From assembly GCA_031970635.1 (NCBI GenBank), contig DALYHZ010000003.1:927-35462 (forward strand): a DNA stretch of 34,536 nt. Direction: 5' to 3'. Shown piece after piece: positions 1 through 27,422 of this stretch. The notes under the pieces are model-generated. The model searched no databases. It saw only the letters and a program-made list of their open reading frames with translations, and was not told the origin of the DNA. The DNA comes from Methylococcaceae bacterium. GTDB taxonomy: Bacteria; Pseudomonadota; Gammaproteobacteria; Methylococcales; Methylomonadaceae. Made by a program: the position numbers and the translations under genes. Each line of letters starts with the position of its first letter. The first letter of the stretch is position 1.

Positions 1-108
1 ATGCGATTGTAATCGTCATTTCGGGCTATAATGGCAACTCAAAGCGATGCTTGCGTTTTCTTGCGTCGCGTTACACAGAATTATCAGCAACAGGAAAAAC
101 CACGCGCT

Positions 109-2488
<2,380 letters not shown>

Positions 2489-10136: not shown

Positions 10137-12221
10137 TTAATTGCTGAACTGCAACTCAGGATAAACTTTTTGCGCCCAATTTATCGCACCATCTCTAGCT
10201 TGTTTCAAAGCAGGTACATCTTCAATCGCATTTATTTTTTTCATAAATTGATGTGTTTTTGCCATATCTTTTGAAAACCGATAAGTGTTTGCATAACAAG
10301 CAACCGCTTTGCGTTCATCTCCACTCAACGCAAACACATCGCCTAAATTCGACCACGCCGCCGCTCTGTCTGGTGCTAACAATAAAGTTGCAATCAACAT
10401 TTGTTGAGCAAGTTCTAAATTTTTTTGTTTCAAATAGGCAAAACCCAAATTGTTGGCAATTTCAACATCGGAAGCATCTAAACGATGAGCTTCAGAAAAT
10501 TTCGCCACCGCGCCATCAATATCTTGTTTGTTTAATAGCGCGTGACCTTCATCGTTAATTTTGCGGGCGGCTTTTTTGTTGCCTTTTTTAGGTTTGGGAG
10601 AAGATTCAATTTTGAGTTTTGCTTCTTGGATTTCAGATTCGTGACCAACGCCGCCATTATCCACAGCGGAATCAAGCATCTGCATTACGGACGATTTTGT
10701 TGCTGACGTATTTTGAACGATGGCTACTGTTTCATTTTTGACAGCGGGAAGTTGTGCGCCCTGTTTTTCTTCGTATTCTTTACCATTGAAAACGTACAGG
10801 CTATTTTTTGCTGGAACAACTTTGTCATTTATTTCTTCAGTTCCTTTTTTTGTTACTAACAAATCAGGGTATTCTTTTTGGCTTTCAATTATGGATATAA
10901 CTCCTTTGTAAGCTGCTTTTTTACTAGAATTATTTTCATCATAAAAACCAGAGTTATCTAATCCAGTTGCTATAGAGCCAATGTAATGCCAATCATTTTT
11001 TGAAAATAAAAATAAATTACTCCAGTTATCTTCCACGCCAAAATGAACATCGCTATTTTCGAGCAAAAATACTGTTTTACTCTCAGAAAGATGTAACGAT
11101 TTAGTCTGTGTAATACTCGGTACATCTCCATAAGCTCCAAACTCTCCAAAATCAGACTGTTTAGACAAAATTTGCCACCAATCTTTTTCCTTTTGGTATG
11201 TTGCTATTCCAATTTTAACTCCACAAGCATGACAATCGTCGAACAGTCCATTTTCAGATGTTTTTGTGAATATGACATGAAAATTGTCGTTTCCATTTTT
11301 AAAGGATTGTTCAAACCAAATTTTGGTGTGACTGTCTTTTGCTAATTCTTTTAAAAATCGAGTACGAAGTACATTTAAATCACGACTACTAAAAAACTCG
11401 TATTTTTCATTGAGAAAACGGTAAGTTTCTTGCGTTTTAGTTTCAGTAACATTGAAAGTAAGGATTAAATCAGGATGTTCATAATTTGTGTTTGTGTGAG
11501 CTTCTGATATTTCGTTATCAAAAATACTCAAATATGAATACTCTTTTTCAACCTGCCATGTATCGCCTTTTTTCACAAAAACAACAGAACTTAATAAAAT
11601 GTTTTCTGGATAACTAACCGAAGTTGAAGTCAGCACAATGTGCTTTGTATTTCCATCTTGCGTAAATTCTTTTGATTCGAGAATTTTTACTGTTCCTGTT
11701 TTACCTGCAAATTTCTCATAATTTTCTAAATTGCTAGGCGGATCGATATTTTCCCAAGATGCCGTTTTTGTATTCGCATCATAATTACTAAACAAAATTT
11801 CAAGAGCTTTGCCATCATCAAAAGCTCCCGTAATCATTCGATTTTCTTCTGCTTTATCACACGCCATTTTGACCAAGGCAGTAACGTCCGAATTATCTGT
11901 TGGCAACGTCAACGTTTCGGAAGCAAACTTTTCTTGGCTTGTACCGTCTTGGCGATATTTCACACCTTCTTCTGCAACGAAACGGCTCTCACAATTCGTG
12001 TCGGCATTTTGAATCACATAACTGTCAGTCAAATCTCTGACCATGTTAAAACTCACCCAGCCGCTACGATCTCGTTTAATTGTGTTGGTGTCGAGGTAAA
12101 ATTTCGCCGCTTTTTTATCCGCGCCAACGGCTGTAAAGCCTGCGAACTTTTCTTCTTGTTTATCGCAAGCGATGAGCATAAACACCAACGACATGGCTAC
12201 TGCAAAAGATTTGAATTTCAT
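10137..12221 (-). CDS. 694-aa lipoprotein of unknown function with C-terminal TPR repeats
   Basis: The lipoprotein signal is MKFKSFAVAMSLVFMLIAC. The N-terminal segment FYLDTNTIKRDRSGWVSFNMV resembles the small adhesin-E-like lipoprotein fold family. About 400 aa of AT-rich unrecognised sequence includes a CHAC motif. A Lys-rich linker is followed by about 3 TPR units (ANNLGFAYLKQKNLELAQQ, AAAWSNLGDVFALSGDERKAV). Confidence 0.6.
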   Translation of the reverse strand: MKFKSFAVAMSLVFMLIACDKQEEKFAGFTAVGADKKAAKFYLDTNTIKRDRSGWVSFNMVRDLTDSYVIQNADTNCESRFVAEEGVKYRQDGTSQEKFASETLTLPTDNSDVTALVKMACDKAEENRMITGAFDDGKALEILFSNYDANTKTASWENIDPPSNLENYEKFAGKTGTVKILESKEFTQDGNTKHIVLTSTSVSYPENILLSSVVFVKKGDTWQVEKEYSYLSIFDNEISEAHTNTNYEHPDLILTFNVTETKTQETYRFLNEKYEFFSSRDLNVLRTRFLKELAKDSHTKIWFEQSFKNGNDNFHVIFTKTSENGLFDDCHACGVKIGIATYQKEKDWWQILSKQSDFGEFGAYGDVPSITQTKSLHLSESKTVFLLENSDVHFGVEDNWSNLFLFSKNDWHYIGSIATGLDNSGFYDENNSSKKAAYKGVISIIESQKEYPDLLVTKKGTEEINDKVVPAKNSLYVFNGKEYEEKQGAQLPAVKNETVAIVQNTSATKSSVMQMLDSAVDNGGVGHESEIQEAKLKIESSPKPKKGNKKAARKINDEGHALLNKQDIDGAVAKFSEAHRLDASDVEIANNLGFAYLKQKNLELAQQMLIATLLLAPDRAAAWSNLGDVFALSGDERKAVACYANTYRFSKDMAKTHQFMKKINAIEDVPALKQARDGAINWAQKVYPELQFSN

Positions 12222-12820
12222 TTTTCTACTTGTCTGGTGTTTCGTTCGATGGCGAGGAGTACGAGAATCAAGCTAAATAAAGCAATCAAGGTCACTGCAC
12301 CAAAAACAAACGCGGCAAAATAGGTTTGTTGCAATCGACGTTCAGCTTTGGCGGAGCGTTCTTCTTCCAATTTCTTAAACTTCAATTGCTTGTACTTGTT
12401 GATTGCGTCAACAAATGGCAGTTTTAACTTGTCGGATTCGGTGACTGTTGCCGCCATTTCGTCGATAAAATTCTGTTGAGCATCGAGCGGCAAAACATCT
12501 AACCAACCGTTAAGCACTTTGATGTTTTCAGGTTCGTTAAAATGCTTTTGTAAAACAAACGGCAATTTCACGGATGGCAGAAGATTTAAGTTTGTTGGTG
12601 ATGGCGAAGAATAGGCTGAAGTTGTATTTTCAACAACGGGCGGTTTTATTGCGTCAGTCACTTCAAAGGCTGTGACTTGGGTATTGATGCCTTTAGAAAA
12701 ATCAACAAACAACATTCCAACAATACCGACGCTAATTAAAATACAGAAAATGATTAGTATGGCAAACACGCGGGTTAAACCAAATAAAAACTTTTTTTCA
12801 AACTTGTCTATAACTTTCAT
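12218..12820 (-). CDS. 200-aa protein with N- and C-terminal transmembrane helices, unknown function
   Basis: TM1 is VFAILIIFCILISVGIVGMLFV and TM2 is FAAFVFGAVTLIALFSLILVLLAI. The region between them is soluble and includes a charged helix, KKLEEERSAKAERRLQ. A 4-nt overlap links it to the 694-aa gene. I recognise no family. Confidence 0.55.
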   Translation of the reverse strand: MKVIDKFEKKFLFGLTRVFAILIIFCILISVGIVGMLFVDFSKGINTQVTAFEVTDAIKPPVVENTTSAYSSPSPTNLNLLPSVKLPFVLQKHFNEPENIKVLNGWLDVLPLDAQQNFIDEMAATVTESDKLKLPFVDAINKYKQLKFKKLEEERSAKAERRLQQTYFAAFVFGAVTLIALFSLILVLLAIERNTRQVEK

Positions 12821-12890
12821 ATTATTTTTCCGCCTTCTTTGGCTTAAAACTATTTGTTATGACACAAAAATCCAAAAGCAATAATCACAA

Positions 12891-14159
12891 CTACGCCCGA
12901 ATATGCCCATCACCCAACACAATATATTTAAGTGATGTTAAGCCTTTCAAGCCAACAGGACCTCTTGCATGTAATTTGTCGGTGCTAATACCAATTTCTG
13001 CGCCCAAACCATATTCAAAACCATCCGCAAAGCGTGTCGAGGCATTCACCATCACCGAACTCGAATCAACTTCACGCAAAAAACGTCGCGCTAATGTGTA
13101 ATCTTCCGTCACAATCGCTTCGGTGTGTTGCGAGCTGTATTGATGAATATGATTCATCGCTTCATCGATGCCGCTTACGATTTTTATCGACAAAATTGGC
13201 GCAAGATATTCGGTATGCCAATCTTCTTCCGTGGCGCGGATGCAATCAGCAAGTAATGAACAGGTTTTTGCACAACCGCGTAATTCAACCCCTTTTGAAT
13301 GATAAATTTTTGCCAATTCAGGTAATACTTTCGGTGCAATATTTTCTGCAACCAGCAATGTTTCCATCGCATTGCAAACGCCGTAGCGGTGTGTTTTCGC
13401 ATTCACAGCGATACGAATGGCTTTGTTTAAATCGGCTTTATCATCAATATAAACATGGCAAATGCCATCTAAATGTTTAATGACTGGAATCGTCGCTTCA
13501 TTGCTAATACGTTCGATTAAACTTTTCCCGCCGCGTGGCACAATTACATCAACAAACTGTTTCATCGTAATCAATTCACCAACTGCCGCGCGGTCTGTGG
13601 TTTCAACAATTTGCACCGCTGCTTCAGGCAATTCGGCTTCAATCAAACCTTGACGCACACACGCCGCAATCGCTTGATTAGAGTGAATCGCCTCCGACCC
13701 GCCACGCAAAATACACGCGTTGCCCGATTTCAAACATAGTGCCGCCGCATCAACGGTAACATTTGGGCGAGATTCATAAATAATCCCAATCACACCAAGC
13801 GGCACACGCATTTGTCCGACTTGAATACCGCTTGGACAATAACTTAAATCGGTGATTTCACCCACTGGGTCAGGCAACGACGCAACTTGAATTAACCCAT
13901 CAATCATGGCGCGAATGCCTTTTGGCGTAAGCGTTAATCTGTCTAACGCGGCATCGTCTAAACCATTTTCTTTACCGGCAATTAAATCTTTTTTGTTTTC
14001 TTCAATTAAATCGTTTTGTTTATCTTGCAACGCATTTGCAATGGCAATTAACGCACGATTTTTATAGTTCGTTTCAACGTGACTTAGGATGCGCGCGGCT
14101 TCTTTGGCTTTTTGTCCTAAGGTTTGCATATAATTTTCAATATTCATTTTCTCATCCAC
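12891..14159 (-). CDS. proA: Gamma-glutamyl phosphate reductase
   Basis: [74 protein letters not shown] and [10 protein letters not shown] are collinear with ProA. The ORF opens at GTG 14159, but the internal ATG 14147 (MNIENYMQ...) is the more likely start. Confidence 0.93.
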
Positions 14160-14160
14160 A

Positions 14161-14673
14161 TTAAAAAATAATCCCTGTCATTTTACATAAAAGCAATCCA
14201 CCACCGGCAAAAATTCCTGCTAAAACATCATCAAGCATAATACCAAAGCCGCCTGTTACATGTTTATCAATCCATTTAATGGGGAACGGTTTCAAAATAT
14301 CAAAGAAACGAAATAGCACAAATCCTAATAAAGCCGCCTGCCAGCTAAACGGTACAAACCATAGCGTAATCAAATAACCGGCAATTTCATCCCAAACAAT
14401 GCCATTAAAATCATGTTCACCAAGCAAATTCGCCGCTTCGTCACAAATTTTAATTCCGATTAACGTCACGATTATTGTAAGCAGGCTGTAAAGCAAAAAT
14501 GGTGTTTGCGCGAATAACAAATACATGGGAATTGCCGCCACTGTGCCACAAGTTCCCGGTGCTTTTTTAACGAGTCCTGAACCAAAACCGAAAGCTAAAA
14601 ATAAAATTGGATTTTTTAAAATTTGAATCAGCGAGAGTTGATTTTTGCCGTAATGCTCAAGAAAAATGTTCAT
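14161..14673 (-). CDS. pgpA: Phosphatidylglycerophosphatase A
   Basis: [31 protein letters not shown] and [13 protein letters not shown] match PgpA. ATG 14673 is preferred over the TTG at 14697. thiL-pgpA synteny is present, and the gene overlaps the thiL stop. Confidence 0.9.
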
Positions 14674-15600: not shown

Positions 15601-17340
15601 TTAACGAGTTGTGATGCTCATTTCACGTCTGACAACCCTAAAAACACTTTTGCCACGATTTTCTTGCGCTTTCCATGAGACATTGTTAATTTGAACCTCG
15701 CTCCCCGTGTAAACACCAAAGGATGCAATAATCCTTGCGTCTTCAATATTTTTCATATTTGCAATTAACTCTGCTAATTCGGCGCGATACACATCCGCTT
15801 CAATCATTAGCTTACTCAACGTGTGATGCAATTTTTCCAAGGTTTCGTCGTTTCTTTTTTCGGGATGTTTTTCGAGAAATGCCAAAACGGTTTTAATGTC
15901 ATTTTGACTTTTGGTATTTAGCGCAAATGCGTTTTTTATTTCTGCAGCACGTTTTTGAACATAAGGATTCGTACCGACTTGAATGCGTGTTTTCATGCCG
16001 GCACTTGAACCGATAAGCGTGGCTTTTACTAATGCCATTGCCCACGTTATCCCACCGATGACAGCTGATTTTGTTCCTCCCATTTTGCTGCCAATGACGA
16101 TTTTGTTTTGTGCCATTAGATGATTATTCATTGAATGTTTTTCAATCACGATGTCAAGCCCTGCTTCAATGACAAAATTTTCAGCATATCCAATACAGAC
16201 CGAACCGCGTGTAATGATTTTTGCCGCATGTTCTTCGTCTTTTTGAAGTTCTGTTTTGCTATAGCCTTGAAGACCGCCTTTTACAATCACACCGCCGCCC
16301 GCAAGCAATTCGGTATTTCCTGTGACACTTCCTTTAATGACCAAATTTCCCATGCACTCAATTTTTGAATTAAAAACGTTACCGTCGATTGTAATATCTT
16401 CGAGCGCAAATATTTTCATGCCTTCTTTAACATCGCCATTTACGACAACTGAGCCATTAAAACGAATATTTCCTGATAATAAATCGACGCGTTTTACAGT
16501 TAAAACGGGTAGGACAATCATACCATGCGGTACTAAAACCGGTTGCCCTGTAATGGTTGAGATGAGTTGATTTTCATTTTCCGGATTGACGCAAACGCCT
16601 TTTTGATCACCAGAAAAAGGAATCTCTGCTCCCCCAGTGGGTTTGACAATTTTGCCTAAAACATTACGTCCTTCTTCGCCTTTTACAGGAGGGATTCGAT
16701 GAACTAAGACCGCATCTTTATGCACAACGACAATGTCACCTAATTCGCGATAATCAACAATGCCATCTTCGTTTACCAGCGGTTTGCGTTCATGTAATTC
16801 GAGTTCGGGAATTAAATTTACAAATTGTGTATCGACGCCATTGATCGGTTCAAATCCTTGTGCAATAACAAATTCAAAAACCTGTTCTTTTGCTAAAACA
16901 GCTTCAATTTCTTCTGTTGAGACGACACCCCAAACAATCCCTTTTTCTTGTAGTAAATTTTGTATATCAAAAAGTGTAACACGCTTACCGCCGAAATTGG
17001 GAGTTAAGGTCAAATAGGCTTGCATTTGGTCCTCAGAAAGGGTGATTTCACATGTCGCATCACGTTGTTCGCCAATTTCGAATTCAAAACGCTCACTGCT
17101 AGTATTGTGATAGCGATAAATTAAATCGGATACTAAATAATCGTTAATGAATAAATGTGAAAGATGTTTTTTTTCTAAACGATCTTTAACAATTTGTGCA
17201 GATAATTCAATTTTGTCATCGCATGGGACAACAACTGCAAATAATTTGTGACTGTTTGAATTTAATTTGAAATCCAGCCCATTTTCTATTCCATCAATCA
17301 TAATGCAATACCATGTGTTATTTTTATTAAAATTCTTCAT
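15601..17340 (-). CDS. DUF342/FapA-family protein (flagellar assembly protein A-like)
   Basis: The N-terminal part contains LSEDQMQAYLTLTP...LLQEKGIVWGV. It is followed by GEEGRNVLGKIV and a long beta-helix-like stretch (GNIRFNGSVVVNGDVKEGMKIFALEDITIDGNV...GGVIVKGG...). The C-terminus is a coiled coil. This is the standard DUF342 layout. The true start may be the internal Met at 17301. Confidence 0.75.
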   Translation of the reverse strand: MKNFNKNNTWYCIMIDGIENGLDFKLNSNSHKLFAVVVPCDDKIELSAQIVKDRLEKKHLSHLFINDYLVSDLIYRYHNTSSERFEFEIGEQRDATCEITLSEDQMQAYLTLTPNFGGKRVTLFDIQNLLQEKGIVWGVVSTEEIEAVLAKEQVFEFVIAQGFEPINGVDTQFVNLIPELELHERKPLVNEDGIVDYRELGDIVVVHKDAVLVHRIPPVKGEEGRNVLGKIVKPTGGAEIPFSGDQKGVCVNPENENQLISTITGQPVLVPHGMIVLPVLTVKRVDLLSGNIRFNGSVVVNGDVKEGMKIFALEDITIDGNVFNSKIECMGNLVIKGSVTGNTELLAGGGVIVKGGLQGYSKTELQKDEEHAAKIITRGSVCIGYAENFVIEAGLDIVIEKHSMNNHLMAQNKIVIGSKMGGTKSAVIGGITWAMALVKATLIGSSAGMKTRIQVGTNPYVQKRAAEIKNAFALNTKSQNDIKTVLAFLEKHPEKRNDETLEKLHHTLSKLMIEADVYRAELAELIANMKNIEDARIIASFGVYTGSEVQINNVSWKAQENRGKSVFRVVRREMSITTR

Positions 17341-19853: not shown

Positions 19854-22800
19854 TTATGCCACAAGCGCAAAGTTCGCCGCAACAAAGTCGCCTGAACTTA
19901 GTGAAGTAACACCTGTTAATGTGACCAAATCCGTGACGGTTGTCGAACTCGCTGCAAGTGTCGTTCCACCTGTAGCCATATTGACTGCTGAGACGTGACC
20001 AAGTGTGCCATCAGACCATACGACGAGAATATCATCATTTGCTGTTACCGCACTTGCAAAGGTCAAGGCTCTTGTACCACCTGTTTCGATTGCGGTTTGA
20101 ACAGCGGCGGCATTGGTAAATGTTGTGCCTACAAGTTCGATAATGTTATTGCCCGCCGCTAGTGTAGTTGCTGCACTCGCAGCCGTTACTGCAAGCGTAG
20201 AACTGGTTGTAACAGCTACGGCATTACCATCTTTTAGTGCAGAGATGTAACCCGTTGTTCCGCTCGTACCAGCATATCCCGTAAGTGAAATGCTTAACAC
20301 GTCACCACCTGTGCCTCTTGTAAAATCGGTAATCACATCAATTCCATTCAAAGTGGTTGCAAGTAGTTTAAATGTGTCAGCACCGCTACCACCCGTTAAA
20401 CTATCAACACCAACACCACCTGTGATCGTATCATTGCCAGAACCACCCGTAATGGTATCTGCTCCCGTACCGCCTGTGATTGATACTGTGCCTGTGCCTG
20501 CATAAGTGACATTATTTGCGTAATCGCCTAATGTTACAGTATCTGCGCCACCGCCACCATTGATAGTCACCACAGCCGCTGCGCCGCTGAAAGTAAGCGC
20601 ATCTACGCCAGAAGTACCTGTGATTGAAGTAAAGCCTGCTGTGCCAAAATCCGCACCTAATGTACCACTCGAAGATGTACCGCCAAAGGCTAACGTTGTA
20701 AAACCTGTAACATGGGCAAAATCACCAGAAACTAGTCCAGATGTTGCTGTGAAACTCAATGTATCGCCTGTATTACCACCACCGTTAATCGTTGCCGCAG
20801 CTAAAATATCTGTGTGATTTGCAACGATCACCGTATCTGCACCAGCCCCTGCAGTGATGCTATCAGCACCACCTGCACCGCTAATGGTATCTGCACCAGA
20901 ACTGCCTGTGATGGTATCTGCTAACGTGCTACTACCTGTGATATTTACAGCTGATTTGCCTGCGGTAATCACCGTTGATGCGGTTAGCCCTGTGACAGTT
21001 CCTGAGGTTTCAATACCTGCAGTGCTTGAAGAAGGTGAACTTCCTATCTTGGTTACATAGCCTTTTGTATCACGAATCCATGAAAGCGCATCTGCACTTA
21101 ATACAGCCACTTGTGTTTGAGTAAATGATTCAAGTTGTCCTGCATCGGTTGCGCTTAATGCCGCAAGTTGTGCAGTTGTAATAGCAGGCACTGCACTAGT
21201 CGTCAAAGAATGAATCGCACCTGTGCTAAGACCAGCTGTTAAACCTTTAAATGTGGCTGGTTTCATTTCGGCAATGACGCTACTGGTTAAAGCTGCGGCT
21301 TGGGTTGATGTTAAACCACCGATTTGAGTTGTTGAGGATGATAAAGATGGAGACTGATCTGCGGTTAATGCTGCAATATGCGCCGTATCAAATCCTAGTA
21401 AGTTTAAACTTTTAACTGCTTTCGGGTCTAGCACAGCAATAGCGGCTGTTGAGAGAGTCGCTGCTTGAGCAGATGATAGTTTAGCAACTTGTGGTTGCAA
21501 TAATGCAGCGGCTTGGTCTGCACCAAAAGAGGGTAATTGACCTGCTGCCGTTGTTGTCAAAACTGCCATTTGATTAGGTGTGAGAGCCGCGATTTGATCT
21601 GCTGACATGGAGGCAAACGCGGCAGCTTTAAGCGAAGGCACAGCTGCTGTTGTAATGGCTTTTAATGTGGCTGGTTGTAATGCTACAACGTCATCAGAGG
21701 TTAGATTTGCAACTTGTGTTGCAGACAATGCTTTGGCTTGTACTGGGGTTAAAGCCGCCGCTTGATCTGAAGTTAATAGAGCAATTTGTGCTGAATCTAA
21801 ACCAAGAATATTTTTTGCAGTTAAACCAGGAATCGATTGTGGGTCGATAGCAATTAACGATGCTGAGGCAATGGCGTGTACTTGTGCAGATGTTAATGCC
21901 GACATCGCTTGAGGTGTTAATAATGACGCGCCAGTTGAATCGATAGCCGCTATAGATGTTGTGCTTAAATAACCAAATTGTGCAGGTTTTAATGCCGCAA
22001 GTTGCCCATCACCTACCAAATAAGAGAGTGTTAACCCCGCCATATTCGTTTTATTAAAGCCGGCAATTGCGGGAAGACTTAATACGGCTACATCATCTGG
22101 TGTTAATGCCGCCACTTTTGCAGAAGTTAACGCGCCAATTTGTGCGGCTGTAATGGCGGGAGCTTGATCGATAGTAATTGCAGCCAATTGCGCCGTGGTT
22201 AATGCACCAAATGTTTTAGCCGGAAGTGCAGACAAAAATGTGTTGCTTAGTGTTGCCACAATTTCTGTTGGTAACAGCGCTATAGATTTAGAAGAAAACG
22301 AAGCGGCTTGAGTCGTTGTCAAAGCGGCAATTTGATCAGCTGTTAAACCAAGCGCTTGCGCAGAACCAATAGCACCAATTTGGGCAGGCGTTAAAGCGGC
22401 AATTTCGGTTGGCGTTAACAACGCCATACTGTCTGAGGTTAATAAGTTAATTTTTAACCCTGCCAATCCACCAGGTGTTTTTGCAGTGCCAATAGAGAAT
22501 GCGCCTAAGTGATCGCTATCTAGAGCAATCAATTGGCTTTTAGTCAATGCTGTCACTTGATCGGATGTCAATGCTGTGATTTGGGTTGGCGTAAATCCGT
22601 TCAACTGGTCAGTCGTCAACGCTACAATTTCTGCTGTTGTCAAACCTGGAATTGCTTTTGATGAAATGCCTGCTAAAGCTCCGGGATCGATATTTTTCAA
22701 TTGGCTGACGGGCAAAGAAGTGATGTTTTTAACGGTTAATGTTGCTAATAAATCGGCTGTCAATCCTGCCGCTTGCGTTTTTGTCAGCACTGCAAAATCA

Positions 22801-22883
22801 GCACTGGTAAATTTTGCAAACTGGGCGGGTGTAACTGTACTAATATCTGTTGTTGCAGCAAGTGCAAATGTTGCGGTAGCCAT
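19854..22883 (-). CDS. 1009-aa secreted or surface repeat protein. It has ~65 octapeptide LTxxQIAA repeats, RTX-type Gly/Asp repeats and a type I secretion-type C-terminal domain.
   Basis: A GAGGA SD lies 8 nt before the ATG. There is no signal peptide and no Cys. The RTX-type block is GGTGADTITGGSGNDTITGGVGVDSLTGGSGADTF, followed by GIDVITDFTRGTGGDVLSISL and a ~180-aa tail, as in T1SS substrates. Confidence 0.8.
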   Translation of the reverse strand: MATATFALAATTDISTVTPAQFAKFTSADFAVLTKTQAAGLTADLLATLTVKNITSLPVSQLKNIDPGALAGISSKAIPGLTTAEIVALTTDQLNGFTPTQITALTSDQVTALTKSQLIALDSDHLGAFSIGTAKTPGGLAGLKINLLTSDSMALLTPTEIAALTPAQIGAIGSAQALGLTADQIAALTTTQAASFSSKSIALLPTEIVATLSNTFLSALPAKTFGALTTAQLAAITIDQAPAITAAQIGALTSAKVAALTPDDVAVLSLPAIAGFNKTNMAGLTLSYLVGDGQLAALKPAQFGYLSTTSIAAIDSTGASLLTPQAMSALTSAQVHAIASASLIAIDPQSIPGLTAKNILGLDSAQIALLTSDQAAALTPVQAKALSATQVANLTSDDVVALQPATLKAITTAAVPSLKAAAFASMSADQIAALTPNQMAVLTTTAAGQLPSFGADQAAALLQPQVAKLSSAQAATLSTAAIAVLDPKAVKSLNLLGFDTAHIAALTADQSPSLSSSTTQIGGLTSTQAAALTSSVIAEMKPATFKGLTAGLSTGAIHSLTTSAVPAITTAQLAALSATDAGQLESFTQTQVAVLSADALSWIRDTKGYVTKIGSSPSSSTAGIETSGTVTGLTASTVITAGKSAVNITGSSTLADTITGSSGADTISGAGGADSITAGAGADTVIVANHTDILAAATINGGGNTGDTLSFTATSGLVSGDFAHVTGFTTLAFGGTSSSGTLGADFGTAGFTSITGTSGVDALTFSGAAAVVTINGGGGADTVTLGDYANNVTYAGTGTVSITGGTGADTITGGSGNDTITGGVGVDSLTGGSGADTFKLLATTLNGIDVITDFTRGTGGDVLSISLTGYAGTSGTTGYISALKDGNAVAVTTSSTLAVTAASAATTLAAGNNIIELVGTTFTNAAAVQTAIETGGTRALTFASAVTANDDILVVWSDGTLGHVSAVNMATGGTTLAASSTTVTDLVTLTGVTSLSSGDFVAANFALVA
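20375..20925 (-). repeat. Coding RTX-like Gly/Asp-rich nonapeptide repeat region
   Basis: TGSSGADTISGAGGADSITAGAGADTV, INGGGGADTVTLGD and GGTGADTITGGSGNDTITGGVGVDSLTGGSGADTF fit the GGxGxDxUx calcium-binding repeat. Confidence 0.75.
21085..22830 (-). repeat. Coding tandem array of degenerate 24-nt (8-codon) repeats, consensus L-T-x-x-Q-I-A-A
   Basis: Protein residues ~20-600 can be written in a nearly uninterrupted 8-residue register, for example LTPTEIAA LTPAQIGA IGSAQALG LTADQIAA LTTTQAAS FSSKSIAL LPTEIVAT LSNTFLSA LPAKTFGA LTTAQLAA. Confidence 0.8.
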
Positions 22884-22934
22884 TTTTAAATCCTCAATAT
22901 GAAAAATGAAATGTTATGATGCTCGTTCGTGTAT

Positions 22935-23104: not shown

Positions 23105-24028
23105 CTAACCAACTTGAATTTCTCTCGTCCAAGAAATTGATACGCGTGGTTCTAACCATTGCTGTAAAAAATCTAAAAAACAACGCACTTTTGCAGATAA
23201 ATATTTACGATGCGGATAAACAGCATGAATATCGAGTGGTGGCAGAGCATAATTTTCTAGCACTGTTTTCAACTTTCCTTTCTCAATGTCACGCCGCACC
23301 ACATAAGTAGCCAAAACAACTAAGCCTAATCCGTTGATTGCCGCTACACGATTAGCTTCTGCAACATTGGATTGCATTCTGCCCGTTACGTTAATAGTTG
23401 TGTAACCAGTGTCAGTTTTAAATTTCCATTTGTCATGCGGCGCACTTGCCCAATTTACTAAGCAGCTATGATTGATTAAATCTTCTGGTGTTTGCGGCAC
23501 GCCATGTTGTGCCAAATAATCTGGCGACCCACAAACAATCATTGACGAACTGGCTAATTTTCGCGCCACCATGCTGGTGTCATCCAAATCGCCCAAATAA
23601 ATCGCAATATCAATACCATCATCAATCAAATCGCCATGACTGCTTTGTAAAATCATTTCGACTGTTAAATCAGGGTATATTTTTAAAAATTCAGCTACTG
23701 CGCGTGTGATATGCGTTGCACCAATAACTGGTGGCGCACTGATTTTTAATGTACCGCGCGGCTCTGTTTGCAAATGCGTAATAGCAGATTCCATGTCTTC
23801 AATATCGAGCAAGACTTGCGAACAGCGTTCTAAATATGACAGTCCCATATCCGTTAGGCTTAAACTGCGGGTCGTACGGTTAAATAAACGAGTTCTTAGA
23901 TCAGCTTCAAGGTGCATGATATGTTTAGTTGCCATCGCGCGAGAAATCCCTAATTCACGTGCGCCACCGACGAAACTGCCGGCTTTCGCGACCCGCTCAA
24001 ACACTTTCATGCTGGTTAATTTGTCCAT
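23105..24028 (-). CDS. LysR-type transcriptional regulator
   Basis: The N-terminal wHTH is MKVFERVAKAGSFVGGARELGISRAMATKHIMHLEADLRTRLFNRTTRSLSLTDMG. It is followed by a ~200-aa co-inducer domain. Confidence 0.9.
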   Translation of the reverse strand: MDKLTSMKVFERVAKAGSFVGGARELGISRAMATKHIMHLEADLRTRLFNRTTRSLSLTDMGLSYLERCSQVLLDIEDMESAITHLQTEPRGTLKISAPPVIGATHITRAVAEFLKIYPDLTVEMILQSSHGDLIDDGIDIAIYLGDLDDTSMVARKLASSSMIVCGSPDYLAQHGVPQTPEDLINHSCLVNWASAPHDKWKFKTDTGYTTINVTGRMQSNVAEANRVAAINGLGLVVLATYVVRRDIEKGKLKTVLENYALPPLDIHAVYPHRKYLSAKVRCFLDFLQQWLEPRVSISWTREIQVG

Positions 24029-24177: not shown

Positions 24178-24362
24178 TATAATTACAACCAACAGGTTTT
24201 GCGTATCCGGATCCATTATTCAATTTGTTCTAATTCTTTCATATTTAACGCTATTATTTTGATGACACATTTTTTATGTTCTATGCGTAACACGTTATTT
24301 AACAATGTTTTTTTAGCGGTTACTTGCAGTCTTTTCGTTAAGCGTAAGGATTGCGTTCACGC

Positions 24363-27300
24363 ATGAAAAAAAAATCCCGTTTGCTTTCTCGTTTTTTGTT
24401 ACTTTACACCCTTGTTGGGTCAGTGACGGTTGCGGCTGTTATCTTTAAATTGGTTAAAGATGAAGTGCAATCTTCGCGTTATCAAGCACATTATTTATCT
24501 GAAATCAGTAAACAACTTAGCTTTAAACTCGAAAACAAAGCCAGTACCTCAATACGTTATCCCAACCACGGTCCTTACGATCAACGATTAGGTTATACGT
24601 TGCTTTCAGATCAAATCGATCGATTGCAAAAAACGGGATTTGAAATTTCCGCTCAAGCAAGCGCGTCACCAATGATGATGCAATTGATGGATGATTACGG
24701 TTTATTTCCCCTCTATCATGAAAAAAATCAAGCCGGTTTGCGATTAGTCGATGGTGAAAATCAACCCCTATTTGCTGCGGTTTATCCGACGTATGGTTAT
24801 CCGAATTTCGATGCCATTCCACCCGTCGTTTTGCATACATTATTGTTCATTGAAAATAGGGAATTGCTTGACGAAAATCGTAAAAGTGTGAATCCCGCAG
24901 TTGAATGGGAGCGTTTAGGCTTTGCTGTGTTACAAATGATGGCAAAAAAATTAGGCGCAGATATAAATGTTCCCGGTGGTAGCACGTTAGCAACGCAATT
25001 AGAAAAATATCGCCATTCGCCCAACGGTTATACGGAATCAATTGTTGAAAAAGTACGGCAAATGGCAAGTGCGTCAATTCGTGCGTATTTGTTGGGTATC
25101 GACACACGCCAAATGCGCCGGCAAATCGCGTTGGCGTATTTGAATACCATGCCGCTGGCTGCTTCTGAAAAATCCGGCGAAGTTCACGGATTAGGCGATG
25201 GTTTAGTCTCTTGGTTTGGCGCAGACTTTAAAGAAACAAATAAACTCCTTGCTACCGAAGCATTGCAAACATTAACGCCAAGCCCTGAACAAGCCAAAGC
25301 CTATCGCCAAGTTTTAAGTGTTTTATTATCGCAACGTCGTCCGACTTATTTACTTGGTGCAGGTTATGATGCACTGCAATCGTTGACCGACAGCTATTTA
25401 CGATTACTTGCTACGCAAGGCGTTATTTCACCAGCATTACGCGATGCGGCGTTGGCGGTTAAAATCGAACTTGTGCCGAAAACCAGTACGCATTATCTAT
25501 TTGTCACAGAACAAAAAACCCAGAACGTGCTTCGTGCACGTTTAGCACAATTGTTAGGCATTAAAACCAATTACGATTTAGACCGTTTGGATTTAACAGT
25601 AAAAACTACGCTCGACTACGGTATTCAACAAGAAGTTACCGCTGCATTACGAAAACTCAGCGATCCGGCTAATGCTCGTGCGGCAGGTTTATTCGGCGAA
25701 CGCATGTTAAATGCGAACACACAACTAAATTCAATTGTTTACAGTCTGATGTTGTTTGAGCGTAGTGATAAAGGAAATTTATTGCGCGTGCAAACCGATA
25801 ATTATGACCAACCGCTCGATATTAACGAAGGTATTCGTTTGGATTTAGGGTCAACGGCGAAATTACGAACACTCGTGCATTATTTGGAATTGATTGCCGA
25901 AATTTACCAAACTTATCAAGGGCAAACGCCGCAGGTGTTGGCAAAAGTTCAGTTGCATCCGCGTGACTTTTTATCTGCGTGGGTTATTGAGCAACTTCGC
26001 GCCAAACCTAAAATAAGTTTGGAAGATATTTTAAATCAAGCCTTAGAACGTAAGTATTCTGCCAGCCCAGGAGAGTATTTTTATACGGGCGGCGGGATGC
26101 ACCATTTTAATAATTTTAGCGAAGACGATGATTACCGAATTCTGTCGGTACGGGACGCATTGCGAAATTCGGTGAATTTGGTGTTTATTCGCATGATGCG
26201 TGATTTGACGTATCATCATTTATATAAACCCGAAGGCATTGCCCGTTGGCTTGAAAATCCCGATGACGACAAACGCCAAGAATATTTAGCGCGTTTTGCT
26301 GACCGCGAAGGTTTAGTTTATTTACGTCGTTTTTATGCGCGATATAAAGGCAAAAGTACCGACGATAATTTAGAAACACTCACGCAACAAGTGTATCCAA
26401 AACCGTCGCGCTTAACGATGCTTTATGAGGCAATTTATCCCGAACGCGATAGAGCCGCATTAGAAAGTTATTTGAAAGAGCATATTCCAGCGTCTGTGTT
26501 GGCGAACGAAAATATCGATAATTTGTTTTATAAATACACGCCTGATAATTTCGACTTGCAGGACCAAGGCTATATTACCAAAGGGCATCCACTCGAATTG
26601 TGGATGGTGCGCTATTTATCAGAGCATCCGAATGCCACGCGCGATGAAGTAATTGCCGCCAGTTCTGAACAACGTCAAGATGTTTATCGTTGGCTGTTTA
26701 AACATACACATCGTTTCGCGCAACAACGCCGCATTATGACGTTGCTTGAAGATGATGCCTTTAAACAAATTCATGCGGCATGGGAACGTGTCGGTTATCC
26801 GTTCGCGTCGCTCACGCCATCTTATGCAACATCAATTGGTGCGTCAGGAGATAGACCAGCGGCATTAGCAGAATTGATGGGGATTATCAGTAATAACGGT
26901 GTGAGATTGCCGGCGGTGCGTTTTTCAAATTTGCATTACGCGCAATCAACGCCTTACGAAACCATTTTGGATAAAACACTTGAAAGTGGACAACAAGTGT
27001 TAGCACCCGAAGTAGCCCATGCTGCGCGAAGTGCATTATTAGGGGTTGTGGCAAATGGTACGGCGGGAAGTTTGAATGGCGTTTATAAAGATGCGACTGG
27101 CAAACTTTTAGCTGTTGGTGGAAAAACTGGAACAGGCGACCATCGTAAAGAAAAATGGGGCGCAGGTGGACAATTGATTGAATCAAAATTTATCAGTCGT
27201 GCGGCAACGTTTACTTTCTTTTTGGGCGATAAATTTTTTGGCGTAATTACCGCTTATGTTGCAGGTGAAAATGCGGAAAGCTATCACTTTACCAGTTCAT

Positions 27301-27422
27301 TACCGGTTCATATTTTGAAATTTTTAGAACCAACGTTGACACCATTATTAAATAAAGCGGCCAACACACCTGTTCAGTCGATCGTTTCCGTGCCATCTAG
27401 CACACCCGTTGTTGCGCCATAA
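24363..27422 (+). CDS. Atypical class-A penicillin-binding-protein-like protein (divergent GT51 transglycosylase module plus transpeptidase motifs), 1019 aa
   Basis: ATG 24363 has an AAGGA SD. There is an N-terminal TM anchor. GT51-like motifs are FIENRELLD, GGSTLATQLEKY and LAYLNTMPL. Transpeptidase-type motifs are SxxK (GSTAKL), SxN (NSVNL) and KTG (GGKTGTGD). The spacing between these motifs is unusually long. Confidence 0.65.
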   Translation: MKKKSRLLSRFLLLYTLVGSVTVAAVIFKLVKDEVQSSRYQAHYLSEISKQLSFKLENKASTSIRYPNHGPYDQRLGYTLLSDQIDRLQKTGFEISAQASASPMMMQLMDDYGLFPLYHEKNQAGLRLVDGENQPLFAAVYPTYGYPNFDAIPPVVLHTLLFIENRELLDENRKSVNPAVEWERLGFAVLQMMAKKLGADINVPGGSTLATQLEKYRHSPNGYTESIVEKVRQMASASIRAYLLGIDTRQMRRQIALAYLNTMPLAASEKSGEVHGLGDGLVSWFGADFKETNKLLATEALQTLTPSPEQAKAYRQVLSVLLSQRRPTYLLGAGYDALQSLTDSYLRLLATQGVISPALRDAALAVKIELVPKTSTHYLFVTEQKTQNVLRARLAQLLGIKTNYDLDRLDLTVKTTLDYGIQQEVTAALRKLSDPANARAAGLFGERMLNANTQLNSIVYSLMLFERSDKGNLLRVQTDNYDQPLDINEGIRLDLGSTAKLRTLVHYLELIAEIYQTYQGQTPQVLAKVQLHPRDFLSAWVIEQLRAKPKISLEDILNQALERKYSASPGEYFYTGGGMHHFNNFSEDDDYRILSVRDALRNSVNLVFIRMMRDLTYHHLYKPEGIARWLENPDDDKRQEYLARFADREGLVYLRRFYARYKGKSTDDNLETLTQQVYPKPSRLTMLYEAIYPERDRAALESYLKEHIPASVLANENIDNLFYKYTPDNFDLQDQGYITKGHPLELWMVRYLSEHPNATRDEVIAASSEQRQDVYRWLFKHTHRFAQQRRIMTLLEDDAFKQIHAAWERVGYPFASLTPSYATSIGASGDRPAALAELMGIISNNGVRLPAVRFSNLHYAQSTPYETILDKTLESGQQVLAPEVAHAARSALLGVVANGTAGSLNGVYKDATGKLLAVGGKTGTGDHRKEKWGAGGQLIESKFISRAATFTFFLGDKFFGVITAYVAGENAESYHFTSSLPVHILKFLEPTLTPLLNKAANTPVQSIVSVPSSTPVVAP

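What the first reader, a model, noticed from the sequence alone, without database searches (positions are those of the whole stretch)
21085..22830. About 65 strictly phased octapeptide repeats (consensus LTxxQIAA), a repeat class I cannot assign to a known solenoid family
Residues ~20-600 of the 1009-aa protein can be written almost without register breaks in 8-residue units: LTSDSMAL LTPTEIAA LTPAQIGA IGSAQALG LTADQIAA LTTTQAAS FSSKSIAL LPTEIVAT LSNTFLSA LPAKTFGA LTTAQLAA ITIDQAPA ITAAQIGA LTSAKVAA LTPDDVAV ... LTSDQAAA LTPVQAKA LSATQVAN LTSDDVVA. Hydrophobic positions 1 and 6 and small residues at 7-8 are conserved. A period of 8 does not fit the heptad, pentapeptide, hexapeptide or RTX nonapeptide repeat classes. 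At the DNA level the 24-nt units are degenerate, so the array is old and selected rather than a recent expansion. The fold could be a helix-turn solenoid or an unusual fibre. The function is not obvious.
Basis: seen in the sequence. Interest (0 to 1): 0.65.

Follow-up and report, generated by a model that had tools for sequence, protein, structure and literature searches.

The report
ALTTAQ octad repeat rod, RTX protein
The eight-residue repeat is real, but it belongs to a repeat family already listed in Pfam (ALTTAQ, PF20080); it is predicted to form a long rod of tiny helices at the front of a calcium-binding protein that is probably secreted, and the one fresh point is that this natural family matches a fold recently designed in the lab and described as almost absent from nature.

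Summary
The ORF at 19854..22883 (-) encodes a 1009-aa acidic protein with no cysteines. Residues 18-600 show a strong 8-residue period (autocorrelation z=14.5), with consensus L-T-[S/P/T]-[A/D]-Q-[I/V]-A-A. There are 57 complete in-register octads and about 14 register breaks, so the array is not "strictly phased". The repeat is not unassignable: Pfam PF20080 "ALTTAQ repeat" matches at E=5e-46. AlphaFold2 (pLDDT 96.7) gives each octad as a 6-residue helix plus a 2-residue linker. A profile built from natural octads hits one PDB chain only: 9ZEM "HeliScrew4" (E=1e-45), a de novo alpha-helical screw whose authors ask why the fold is not seen frequently in natural proteins. The family has at least 1066 clusters at 50% identity. 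Residues ~640-860 are RTX repeats, followed by a type-I-secretion-like tail; no secretion genes lie in the window. A syntenic ortholog shows strong purifying selection on the array (dN/dS 0.15, 490 residues ungapped), and synonymous sites between units are randomised, so the array is old. Best reading: a rigid helical-screw rod on a probably T1SS-exported RTX protein. It is a new member of a catalogued but experimentally uncharacterised family. Interest is moderate.

The parts
19854..22883 (-). Complete gene: 1009-aa ALTTAQ-repeat / RTX protein (98 kDa, pI 4.3, 0 Cys, Ala 18%, Thr 16%)
   Evidence: ORF list. Composition. Syntenic 1006-aa ortholog at 67% identity in MAG contig CAILJB010000114.
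22891..22895 (-). Shine-Dalgarno-like GAGGA, 7 nt upstream of the ATG
   Evidence: Read directly from the upstream sequence ...ATTGAGGATTTAAAA-ATG. By inspection only.
22833..22883 (-). N-terminal 17 residues (MATATFALAATTDISTV) before the array. There is no basic n-region or long hydrophobic core typical of a Sec signal peptide.
   Evidence: Sequence. Homologs have similar short Thr-rich N-termini that run straight into the array. AF2 pLDDT is low for residues 1-3, and no secondary structure is assigned before residue 14. No signal-peptide predictor was run.
21084..22832 (-). ALTTAQ octad-repeat array, residues 18-600: 57 complete octads plus partial units, about 14 register breaks; predicted alpha-helical-screw solenoid
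   Evidence: Autocorrelation. Phasing. Pfam PF20080 E=5.3e-46. AF2 pLDDT about 90 or higher across the array. dN/dS 0.148 against the ortholog.
21537..22004 (-). Longest unbroken run of octads, residues 294-449 (about 19.5 units); this segment was modelled on its own
   Evidence: Phasing. AF2 mean pLDDT 96.7, pTM 0.88, 18 helices alternating with 2-3-residue linkers. Residues 351-458 align to PDB 9ZEM chain A at E=4.3e-12.
20964..21083 (-). Array end and junction, residues 601-640: conserved motif ...SADALSWIRDTKGYVT... with a longer capping helix (597-606) leading into beta structure
   Evidence: AF2 helix H597-606 followed by strands from residue 610. The motif recurs in P0001, P0002 and P0007 and in the L001 ortholog.
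20304..20963 (-). Gly/Asp-rich RTX region, residues about 641-860, with G-x-G-x-D motifs at 679, 777, 805, 814, 823, 832 and 857; predicted Ca2+-binding beta-roll or parallel beta structure
   Evidence: Pfam PF00353 E=4.2e-16, 59 bits against a cut-off of 23. Motif scan. PDB sequence hits to CyaA RTX blocks, AlgE R-modules and serralysins. AF2 beta strands at pLDDT about 55-85.
19854..20303 (-). C-terminal about 150 residues (861-1009) plus the stop codon: putative uncleaved type I secretion signal region, ending ...GDFVAANFALVA
   Evidence: TIGR03661 'T1SS C-terminal target domain' scores 17.0 bits against a 17.6 cut-off, residues 849-922; this is borderline and below threshold. The acidic residue followed by a hydrophobic tail is seen in the sequence. 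AF2 confidence is below 50 here.

Best explanation
The region encodes an array of ALTTAQ repeats (Pfam PF20080).

How the octad builds the fold. Each octad forms one very short alpha-helix from positions 3-8 (x-x-Q-[I/V]-A-A). Positions 1-2 (Leu-Thr) form the turn. Thr/Ser/Asp at position 2 acts as the helix N-cap, and Pro is frequent at position 3, the first helical residue (N1). Leu1 and Ile/Val6 would stack into a continuous apolar core. Ala7 and Ala8 would allow tight packing, and Gln5 is the most conserved polar position. About 65-70 such helices wind into one long single-chain superhelix, an 'alpha-helical screw' or solenoid rod. The fold is shown only by AlphaFold2 models and by sequence identity to the crystallised design HeliScrew4; there is no structure of a natural member.

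The rest of the protein. The rod is capped by a conserved junction motif. It is followed by an RTX Ca2+-binding beta-roll and a C-terminal tail that resembles a type I secretion signal.

Inferred mechanism. The protein is exported unfolded, C-terminus first, by an unlinked type I secretion system. The RTX part folds on binding extracellular Ca2+. The octad array, whose contacts are all local, then folds unit by unit as it emerges. The result would be a stiff N-terminal rod roughly 20 nm long (rough estimate) on or near the cell surface. In this protein no enzymatic or lectin domain is attached, so its role would be structural: a surface fibre, a spacer, or an adhesin- or lattice-like element. 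In other family members the same array carries proteases, Ig-like, cadherin, lectin or G8 domains.
For: Repeat and family:
- Period 8, z=14.5.
- 57 phased octads with a defined consensus.
- PF20080 at E=5.3e-46, far above the gathering score.

Fold:
- AF2 on residues 294-449 with a 36-sequence alignment gives pLDDT 96.7 and pTM 0.88. The pattern is strictly a 6-residue helix plus a 2-residue linker, with helices starting at octad position 3.
- The full-length model keeps pLDDT around 90 across residues 14-606, with about 62 short helices.
- A profile of 77 natural 40-residue fragments hits PDB 9ZEM (HeliScrew4, 2.2 A crystal structure of an 8-mer helical screw) at E=1.2e-45 over its whole length, and nothing else below E=0.1. 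The single-sequence hit is E=4.3e-12.
- The preprint's rules for the fold match positions 2, 3, 1 and 6 here: S/T/D/N at the N-cap, Pro at N1, apolar core.
- Foldseek's weak best matches are other superhelices of short helices: mesothelin, and 7QLR, the phage CDHS-1 receptor-binding protein, which has three helices per turn and is right-handed.

Selection:
- Against the syntenic ortholog the array has 78.6% amino-acid identity, dN/dS 0.148 at dS 0.91, and no indel over residues 88-577. The C-terminal 300 residues have 35% identity.
- Core positions 1 and 5 are the most conserved (91%, 93%) and positions 3 and 4 the least (72%, 67%).

Secretion:
- PF00353 RTX.
- Seven G-x-G-x-D motifs, no Cys, pI 4.3.
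- No signal-peptide-like N-terminus in this protein or its relatives.
- TIGR03661 scores just below its cut-off.
- Family partners are extracellular-type domains: RTX, Big_5, cadherin, C-type lectin, G8/CEMIP beta-helix, calpain-type protease.
Against: - No natural ALTTAQ structure has been solved.
- 9ZEM is a designed protein. Its sequence was produced by models trained on natural proteins, so it is not independent evidence of convergence. It is still an experimental structure of an ALTTAQ-consensus-like sequence.
- Foldseek did not return 9ZEM, which may be absent from the library (that stops at 2026-04-08). All structural matches have low TM-scores (0.44 or less).
- I could not obtain model coordinates, so handedness, units per turn and rod length are not measured.
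- About 14 register breaks could introduce kinks. The AF2 full-length pTM is only 0.58.
- No T1SS ABC transporter, membrane-fusion or outer-membrane gene lies in the 34.5-kb window or beside the two relatives inspected.
- The T1SS domain model scores below its cut-off.
- The C-terminal 200 residues are modelled with pLDDT below 50.
- The biological role (fibre, spacer or lattice) is inference only.
Confidence: 0.72

Rival explanations
1. It is an S-layer or surface-lattice subunit of the RsaA type. The RTX-like C-terminal half would crystallise with Ca2+ into a 2-D lattice, and the N-terminal helical array would anchor it to the cell envelope. On this reading the array is a specific binding and assembly surface, not a passive rod.
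For: - The size (1009 aa), the lack of Cys, the acidic Ala/Thr/Gly-rich composition and the RTX motifs resemble T1SS-exported S-layer proteins (the comparison with Caulobacter RsaA is from my own knowledge and was not tested).
- The array is the best-conserved part of the protein and its length is fixed: 490 residues ungapped, dN/dS 0.15. That is more constraint than a simple spacer needs.
- The gene sits at a conserved chromosomal position among housekeeping genes in related MAGs.
Against: - No S-layer family model hit in Pfam or NCBIfam.
- No expression or abundance data.
- Surface positions 3 and 4 are the least conserved in the octad, as expected for a structural scaffold.
- Other family members carry enzymes and adhesion domains, which fits a generic stalk.
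Confidence: 0.15
2. The octad region is a low-complexity, largely disordered or conformationally loose Ala/Thr/Leu-rich linker, and the high AlphaFold confidence is an artefact of repetitiveness.
For: - Composition is biased (Ala 21%, Leu 14%, Thr 13% in the array).
- Foldseek finds no solved natural structure with a good TM-score.
- Structure predictors can be over-confident on idealised repeats.
Against: - Position-specific conservation matches a capping-box and apolar-core pattern.
- dN/dS of 0.15 with no indels over 490 residues is atypical for disordered linkers.
- An ALTTAQ-consensus-like sequence, 9ZEM, crystallised as the predicted helical screw and showed an alpha-helical CD spectrum.
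- The family is maintained in at least 1066 clusters at 50% identity, with arrays of up to about 190 units.
Confidence: 0.06
3. It is a leucine-rich-repeat-like or autotransporter-type adhesin. Some databases name homologs 'trimeric autotransporter adhesin' or 'beta strand repeat-containing protein'.
For: - JGI and NCBI names on homologs P0002, P0090, P0018.
- Weak sub-threshold matches to LRR_EndoS (15 bits against 27.9) and to lamprey VLR LRR proteins (E of 0.3 or more).
Against: - The period is 8, not 20-30.
- AF2 predicts helices, not beta strands.
- There is no YadA-type anchor, no passenger or translocator domain and no signal peptide.
- All LRR matches are below threshold.
Confidence: 0.02

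Closest known systems
Pfam PF20080 'ALTTAQ repeat' family
   Same: The array matches the family HMM far above threshold (154 bits against 26.4). All 120 listed homologs carry PF20080 except one. They share the period, the motif and, usually, the N-terminal position.
   Different: The family is only catalogued. I found no paper that mentions it and no solved natural structure. This member combines it with RTX repeats and a T1SS-like tail, and it lies in a Methylococcales-like lineage. Other members carry calpain-type proteases, Big_5, G8, lectin or cadherin domains.
HeliScrew4 (PDB 9ZEM), a de novo 8-mer 'alpha-helical screw' (bioRxiv 10.64898/2025.12.04.691947)
   Same: It has the same octad (LTPEQIAA / LSPDKIAA) and is matched by a profile of natural octads at E=1.2e-45. 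It has the same N-cap, Pro-N1 and apolar-core logic. The AF2 pattern of a 6-residue helix plus a 2-residue linker agrees with it.
   Different: It is designed, 120 residues long, idealised and charged on the surface. The natural array is about 5 times longer, degenerate, Ala/Thr-rich, and interrupted by conserved register breaks. A structural superposition could not be run. The preprint treats the fold as almost absent from nature and does not mention the natural family.
Gp22 receptor-binding protein of C. difficile phage CDHS-1 (PDB 7QLR)
   Same: Its overall plan is similar: an N-terminal right-handed superhelix of many short helices (42 helices, three per turn, 529 residues) followed by a C-terminal metal-binding beta domain. 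It is among the Foldseek matches of the full-length model (rank 9, E=1.8e-3). The HeliScrew preprint cites it as the only natural helical screw in the PDB.
   Different: There is no detectable sequence relationship (absent at E up to 10). Its helices are irregular (4-17 residues) rather than a strict octad. It is a dimer with a helical hairpin crossbar, and its C-terminal domain is a Mg2+-binding beta-sandwich, not an RTX beta-roll. The Foldseek TM-score is very low (0.10-0.15).
RTX-family type I secretion substrates (CyaA RTX blocks, serralysin-type proteases, AlgE R-modules)
   Same: GGxGxD nonapeptide repeats above the Pfam threshold, acidic and Cys-free composition, no N-terminal signal peptide, and a hydrophobic C-terminal tail.
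   Different: No toxin, protease or epimerase domain is present. The passenger is a helical-screw array rather than Ig-like or enzymatic modules. No retention module was detected, and the T1SS C-terminal model is just below its cut-off. No transporter genes are nearby.
Mesothelin (PDB 8CX3/7UED), a compact right-handed solenoid of short helices of ARM/HEAT type
   Same: It is the best Foldseek match of both models (E=2e-3 to 4e-4, prob 1.0). It is also a superhelix built of short helices on an extracellular protein.
   Different: TM-score is 0.44 or lower and rmsd 9-11 A. Mesothelin has irregular 30-40-residue ARM/HEAT-like repeats with disulfides and glycans, not an 8-residue unit. There is no sequence similarity.

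Membership tests
Pfam PF20080 ALTTAQ repeat | Score above the curated gathering threshold of the family HMM | tested here: met
   154.4 bits against a cut-off of 26.4, E=5.3e-46, 15 matched stretches.
Pfam PF20080 ALTTAQ repeat | Tandem motif A-L-T-x-x-Q recurring every 8 residues | tested here: met
   Lag-8 autocorrelation z=14.5. 57 phased units with L1 (38/57), T2 (32/57), Q5 (27/57), A7 (30/57), A8 (26/57).
Alpha-helical screw (HeliScrew class, 8-mer) | One short helix per 8-residue repeat, joined by very short linkers | tested here: met
   In the AF2 models only: 18 helices of 4-6 residues (the last one 13) separated by 2-3 residues over residues 294-449, pLDDT 96.7. About 62 helices over residues 14-606.
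Alpha-helical screw (HeliScrew class, 8-mer) | S/T/D/N at the helix N-cap, frequent Pro at N1, apolar side chains forming the core | tested here: met
   Position 2 is T/S/D in 48 of 57 units and lies just before the helix start. Position 3 is Pro in 13 of 57. Positions 1 and 6 are L/I/F/M/V. The rule is quoted from the preprint.
Alpha-helical screw (HeliScrew class, 8-mer) | Sequence-level match to the crystallised member 9ZEM | tested here: met
   E=4.3e-12 with the window protein. E=1.2e-45 with a profile of natural fragments; it is the only PDB hit below 0.1.
Alpha-helical screw (HeliScrew class, 8-mer) | Tight right-handed superhelix with 2.5-4.0 repeats per turn | not testable with these tools
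No 3-unit sequence super-period was detected in the family.
RTX repeat proteins | Tandem GGxGxD nonapeptides above the PF00353 threshold | tested here: met
   59 bits against 23, E=4.2e-16. Motifs at 679, 777, 805, 814, 823, 832 and 857. PDB sequence hits to CyaA, AlgE and serralysin.
Type I secretion system substrate | Recognisable C-terminal secretion or target domain | tested here: inconclusive
   TIGR03661 scores 17.0 bits against a cut-off of 17.6. The tail ends ...GDFVAANFALVA, an acidic residue followed by hydrophobic residues.
Type I secretion system substrate | No cleavable N-terminal signal peptide; Cys-free and acidic | tested here: met
   The N-terminus MATATFALAATTDISTV has no basic n-region. 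0 Cys, pI 4.3. Homologs are the same. Judged by inspection; no SignalP-type predictor was available.
Type I secretion system substrate | Cognate ABC transporter, membrane-fusion protein and outer-membrane factor encoded in the genome (often adjacent) | tested here: inconclusive
   None in the 34.5-kb window or beside relatives L004 and L006. The rest of the genome is not available, and many substrates are unlinked.
T1SS giant adhesins with an N-terminal retention module (LapA / MpIBP type) | N-terminal retention module and Ig-like extender repeats | tested here: not met
   No retention-module or Ig-like family appears in the NCBIfam or Pfam scans at E up to 1.
Leucine-rich repeat proteins | 20-30-residue LxxLxLxxN repeat with a beta strand per unit | tested here: not met
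   The period is 8. LRR_EndoS scores 15 bits against a cut-off of 27.9. The models are helical.
Trimeric autotransporter adhesins (name attached to some homologs) | Sec signal peptide and C-terminal YadA-like membrane anchor | tested here: not met
   No such domains in the Pfam or NCBIfam scans. No signal peptide by inspection.
ARM/HEAT solenoids (mesothelin-like) | 30-40-residue repeats of 2-3 helices | tested here: not met
   The repeat unit is 8 residues with one helix. Foldseek TM is 0.44 or lower.

The most novel reading that the evidence does not exclude
ALTTAQ arrays would be the natural, widespread form of the 'alpha-helical screw', a fold published in December 2025 as protein 'dark matter' with a single natural example. 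On this reading nature uses it routinely. It occurs in at least a thousand protein clusters, with arrays of up to about 190 units. It serves as a length-defined rigid rod at the N-terminus of signal-peptide-less exported proteins, and its purely local contacts would let it fold unit by unit as it leaves a type I secretion channel. In this lineage the rod is more strongly conserved than the RTX half, so it may be a specific surface-assembly or binding element rather than a spacer.
Probability: 0.45. Interest if true: 0.55.

Novelty: new member of a known kind. Interest (0 to 1): 0.38.

Why it matters
On its own terms the finding is ordinary: the octad is a catalogued Pfam repeat on an RTX protein.

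What is worth passing on is the link between three things that the literature I could search does not connect:
- an unstudied Pfam family (ALTTAQ);
- a crystallised de novo 'HeliScrew', whose authors ask why the fold is not seen frequently in natural proteins;
- a phage receptor-binding protein (7QLR).

If natural ALTTAQ arrays adopt the helical-screw fold, the fold is not rare. Its sequence rules (Thr N-cap, Pro at N1, Leu/Ile core, conserved Gln) can then be read from thousands of natural repeats. It would also give a new class of thin, rigid, length-programmable extracellular rods, of interest for repeat-protein design and for how type I substrates fold during export.

Tried and rejected
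- Tandem Repeats Finder on the DNA found no 24-nt array. This agrees with degenerate DNA, so I used codon-position autocorrelation instead.
- Foldseek of the 156-residue model against the PDB gave no hit at E<=1e-3, and neither 9ZEM nor 7QLR appeared in the listed top 50 matches. 7QLR appeared only weakly with the full-length model. 3Di searches carry little information for arrays of identical short helices, and the library may predate the release of 9ZEM.
- I looked for a 3-unit (24-residue) super-period, suggested by lag 24 exceeding lag 16. Unit-distance identities in the window and across 233 family proteins do not support it.
- LRR and trimeric-autotransporter readings were rejected.
- I looked for T1SS genes in the window and next to relatives and found none.
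- Promoter and terminator scans around the gene gave nothing above the shuffle expectation.
- A literature search for 'ALTTAQ' returned 0 papers. 'PF20080' matched 7 papers, none of them, judging by their titles and abstracts, about protein repeats.
- The source organism was not pinned down beyond 'related to MAGs labelled uncultured proteobacterium / Methylococcales'. I ran no further search on it.

Full report
**Gene and coordinates.** The finding lies inside one ORF on the minus strand, 19854..22883, encoding 1009 aa. A GAGGA Shine-Dalgarno-like motif lies 7 nt upstream of the ATG. The protein is 98 kDa with pI 4.3, no cysteine, and 18% Ala, 16% Thr, 11% Leu.

**Is the repeat real?** Yes.
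- BLOSUM62 autocorrelation over residues 1-620 gives z=14.5 at lag 8, and z=10.7, 11.9, 7.6 and 5.4 at lags 16, 24, 32 and 40, against 200 shuffles. Every other lag has z<3.
- An iterated 8-column profile with a Viterbi path that penalises phase jumps places 57 complete in-register octads between residues 18 and 600. The consensus is L-T-[S/P/T]-[A/D/T]-Q-[I/V/A/L]-A-[A/G].
- The same analysis finds about 14 register breaks or short insertions. The longest unbroken run is residues 294-449.
- The period and consensus are therefore confirmed. 'About 65 strictly phased' units 'almost without register breaks' is an overstatement.

**DNA level.**
- TRF sees no array.
- Lag-24 nucleotide identity is 43.5% against about 28% at other lags. 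It is carried by codon positions 1 and 2, while position 3 is near background.
- Identical residues in adjacent units share a codon at chance level (62 observed, 58.0 expected). The longest exact repeat is 16 nt.

**Family assignment.**
- Pfam-A assigns the region to PF20080 'ALTTAQ repeat' (E=5.3e-46, 154 bits against a 26.4 cut-off, 15 stretches) and residues about 800-840 to PF00353 RTX repeats (E=4.2e-16).
- NCBIfam gives only sub-threshold RTX-type matches, plus the T1SS C-terminal target domain TIGR03661 at 17.0 bits against 17.6.
- The family appears unstudied: no paper in the 8.3-million-paper library contains 'ALTTAQ'.

**Fold.**
- AlphaFold2 on residues 294-449 with a 36-sequence alignment gives mean pLDDT 96.7 and pTM 0.88. 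DSSP shows 18 helices of 4-6 residues (the last one 13) separated by 2-3 residues.
- Mapping onto the octad, the helix covers positions 3-8 and positions 1-2 (Leu-Thr) form the turn.
- The full-length model keeps pLDDT around 90 from residue 14 to 606, with about 62 short helices. It then switches to beta strands (610-850, pLDDT 55-85) and a low-confidence tail.

**Link to the designed HeliScrew.**
- A sequence search of the PDB gives as top hit 9ZEM chain A, 'HeliScrew4' (E=4.3e-12, residues 351-458).
- A profile built only from 77 natural 40-residue fragments of this protein and its homologs hits 9ZEM at E=1.2e-45 along its whole length. It hits no other PDB sequence below E=0.1.
- 9ZEM is a de novo 'alpha-helical screw' built from 8-residue repeats and solved at 2.2 A (bioRxiv 10.64898/2025.12.04.691947). 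The authors describe apolar core packing, Pro at N1, and Ser/Thr/Asp/Asn at the N-cap. These are the features of octad positions 1/6, 3 and 2 here.
[quoted passage not shown]'. The preprint does not mention Pfam or natural homologs.

**Other structural matches.**
- 7QLR is the receptor-binding protein Gp22 of C. difficile phage CDHS-1. It has an N-terminal right-handed superhelix of 42 short helices, three per turn, and a C-terminal Mg2+-binding beta-sandwich.
- Foldseek links my models only weakly to mesothelin (E about 1e-3, TM 0.44 or lower) and to 7QLR (E=1.8e-3).
- 9ZEM is not returned, possibly because the structure library ends in April 2026.
- I could not access coordinates, so superhelical parameters are not measured.

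**Distribution.**
- An exhaustive phmmer of residues 18-600 against 1.84 billion cluster representatives finds 1066 proteins at E<=1e-3, 405 at E<=1e-10 and 57 at E<=1e-30. Many are giant, up to 4525 aa.
- My phasing finds up to 193 octads in one protein.
- In the word-indexed search nearly all hits carry PF20080. Partner domains include RTX, calpain-type Peptidase_C2, Big_5, G8 plus CEMIP beta-helix, a DUF5122 propeller plus SWM_repeat, C-type lectin and cadherin.
- The array usually starts within the first 5-20 residues, with no signal-peptide-like N-terminus. Many C-termini end in short hydrophobic tails.
- A 753-aa protein of an uncultured phage is the best BFVD match (27% identity, rmsd 4.9 A over 123 columns, E=3e-3).

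**Evolution.**
- Five related loci were found in GTDB genomes: MAGs labelled uncultured proteobacterium and Methylococcales.
- L001 is fully syntenic (folC-accD-trpA-trpB-trpF, the 1023-aa transglycosylase-domain protein, lysR, the ALTTAQ gene, ubiD) and encodes a 1006-aa ortholog. L002 shares the same flank.
- The array aligns unit for unit, register breaks included, with no indel over residues 88-577. It has 78.6% identity and dN/dS 0.148 at dS 0.91. Residues 701-1009 have 35% identity and dN/dS 0.32.
- Within the octad, positions 1 (Leu, 91%) and 5 (Gln, 93%) are the most conserved and positions 3-4 the least. The same ranking holds in four more distant relatives.
- This is the signature of a structural repeat under purifying selection on both sequence and length.

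**The rest of the protein and its context.**
- Residues about 641-860 contain seven G-x-G-x-D motifs and match CyaA RTX blocks, AlgE R-modules and serralysins in the PDB.
- The last about 150 residues end in ...GDFVAANFALVA.
- Together with the absence of cysteine, the low pI and the lack of a signal peptide, this points to a type I secretion substrate. This is inference: the T1SS domain model is just below threshold.
- The window contains only housekeeping genes (gyrB, lgt, thyA, mutY, thiL, pgpA, ubiD, trpFBA, accD, folC and others) and a LysR regulator upstream. It has no ABC, membrane-fusion or outer-membrane exporter. None lies beside relatives L004 and L006 either.

**Interpretation.**
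- Shown: the period, the family membership, the RTX repeats, the antiquity of the array and its purifying selection.
- Strongly suggested: the helical-screw solenoid fold, from AF2 plus a crystallised consensus-like design.
- Inferred: export by an unlinked T1SS with Ca2+-driven folding of the RTX part; sequential folding of the array as it emerges; and a structural role as an extracellular rod.
- A rod length of about 20 nm follows if there are about 3 units per turn and about 1 nm rise per turn. That is a rough estimate by analogy with 7QLR and the preprint's 2.5-4 units per turn.
- An S-layer-like assembly role is a live rival, because the array is the most conserved part of the protein.
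- Disorder, LRR and autotransporter readings are rejected.

**Verdict.** This is a new member of a catalogued but unstudied repeat family, not a new repeat class. The modest added value is the unreported link between natural ALTTAQ arrays and the 'HeliScrew' fold, which its authors found in only one natural protein.

Noticed in passing
window 31..2488 (+), break near 1255-1272: gyrB is split into two overlapping ORFs: 31..1272 (ATPase and DNA_gyraseB domains) and 1226..2488 (Toprim, insert and C-terminal domains). Frame 1 reads ...[11 protein letters not shown] and the continuation [13 protein letters not shown] is in another frame. Compared with the E. coli GyrB sequence (recalled from memory), about 9 residues (EAARKAREM-like) seem to be missing and there is one extra base. 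This is a frameshift or small deletion, possibly an assembly error.
   Followed up: partly
window 23105..24028 (-): A LysR-family regulator lies immediately upstream of the ALTTAQ/RTX gene on the same strand. This adjacency is conserved in the syntenic MAG locus L001 (8831..9754) and apparently in L002 (8803..9822). It is a candidate regulator of the gene; this was not tested.
   Followed up: partly
window 24351..27422 (+): A 1023-aa protein with a TTG start in which Pfam recognises only a transglycosylase domain (residues 150-320). About 700 residues remain unassigned. It is conserved at the same position in L001 and L002 (1023 and 1037 aa).
   Followed up: no
L004 8037..9995 and 11393..14665; L002 and L005 (same MAG, KT_bin-2439): Relatives carry more than one ALTTAQ gene. 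L004 has two ALTTAQ ORFs 1.4 kb apart (652 aa without RTX and 1090 aa with RTX; possibly one disrupted gene or a tandem pair). One MAG has two paralogs on different contigs.
   Followed up: partly
family proteins P0010, P0012, P0022, P0054, P0021, P0035, P0008 (C-termini): Non-RTX ALTTAQ proteins (for example those with calpain-type proteases) also lack signal peptides. Several end in similar short tails (…LLAATV, …LVASHV, …LLATPV, …LASVSI, …VLASPS, …LAASHA). This may be a shared C-terminal sorting or secretion signal.
   Followed up: no
BFVD entry A0A6J7X2V1 (uncultured Caudovirales phage, 753 aa): This is the best viral structural match to the octad model (27% identity, rmsd 4.9 A over 123 columns, prob 1.0, E=3e-3). 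It suggests that ALTTAQ-like arrays also occur in phage proteins, in line with the phage receptor-binding protein 7QLR.
   Followed up: no
window 15601..17340 (-): A 579-aa FapA-domain protein (FapA_N plus the FapA beta-solenoid) lies between thiL and a 210-aa ORF with no Pfam match, outside any flagellar cluster in this window.
   Followed up: no
window 22576..22902 (+) and 20560..20817 (+): Antisense ORFs of 108 and 85 aa lie inside the ALTTAQ/RTX gene. They are most likely artefacts of the biased repeat composition.
   Followed up: no
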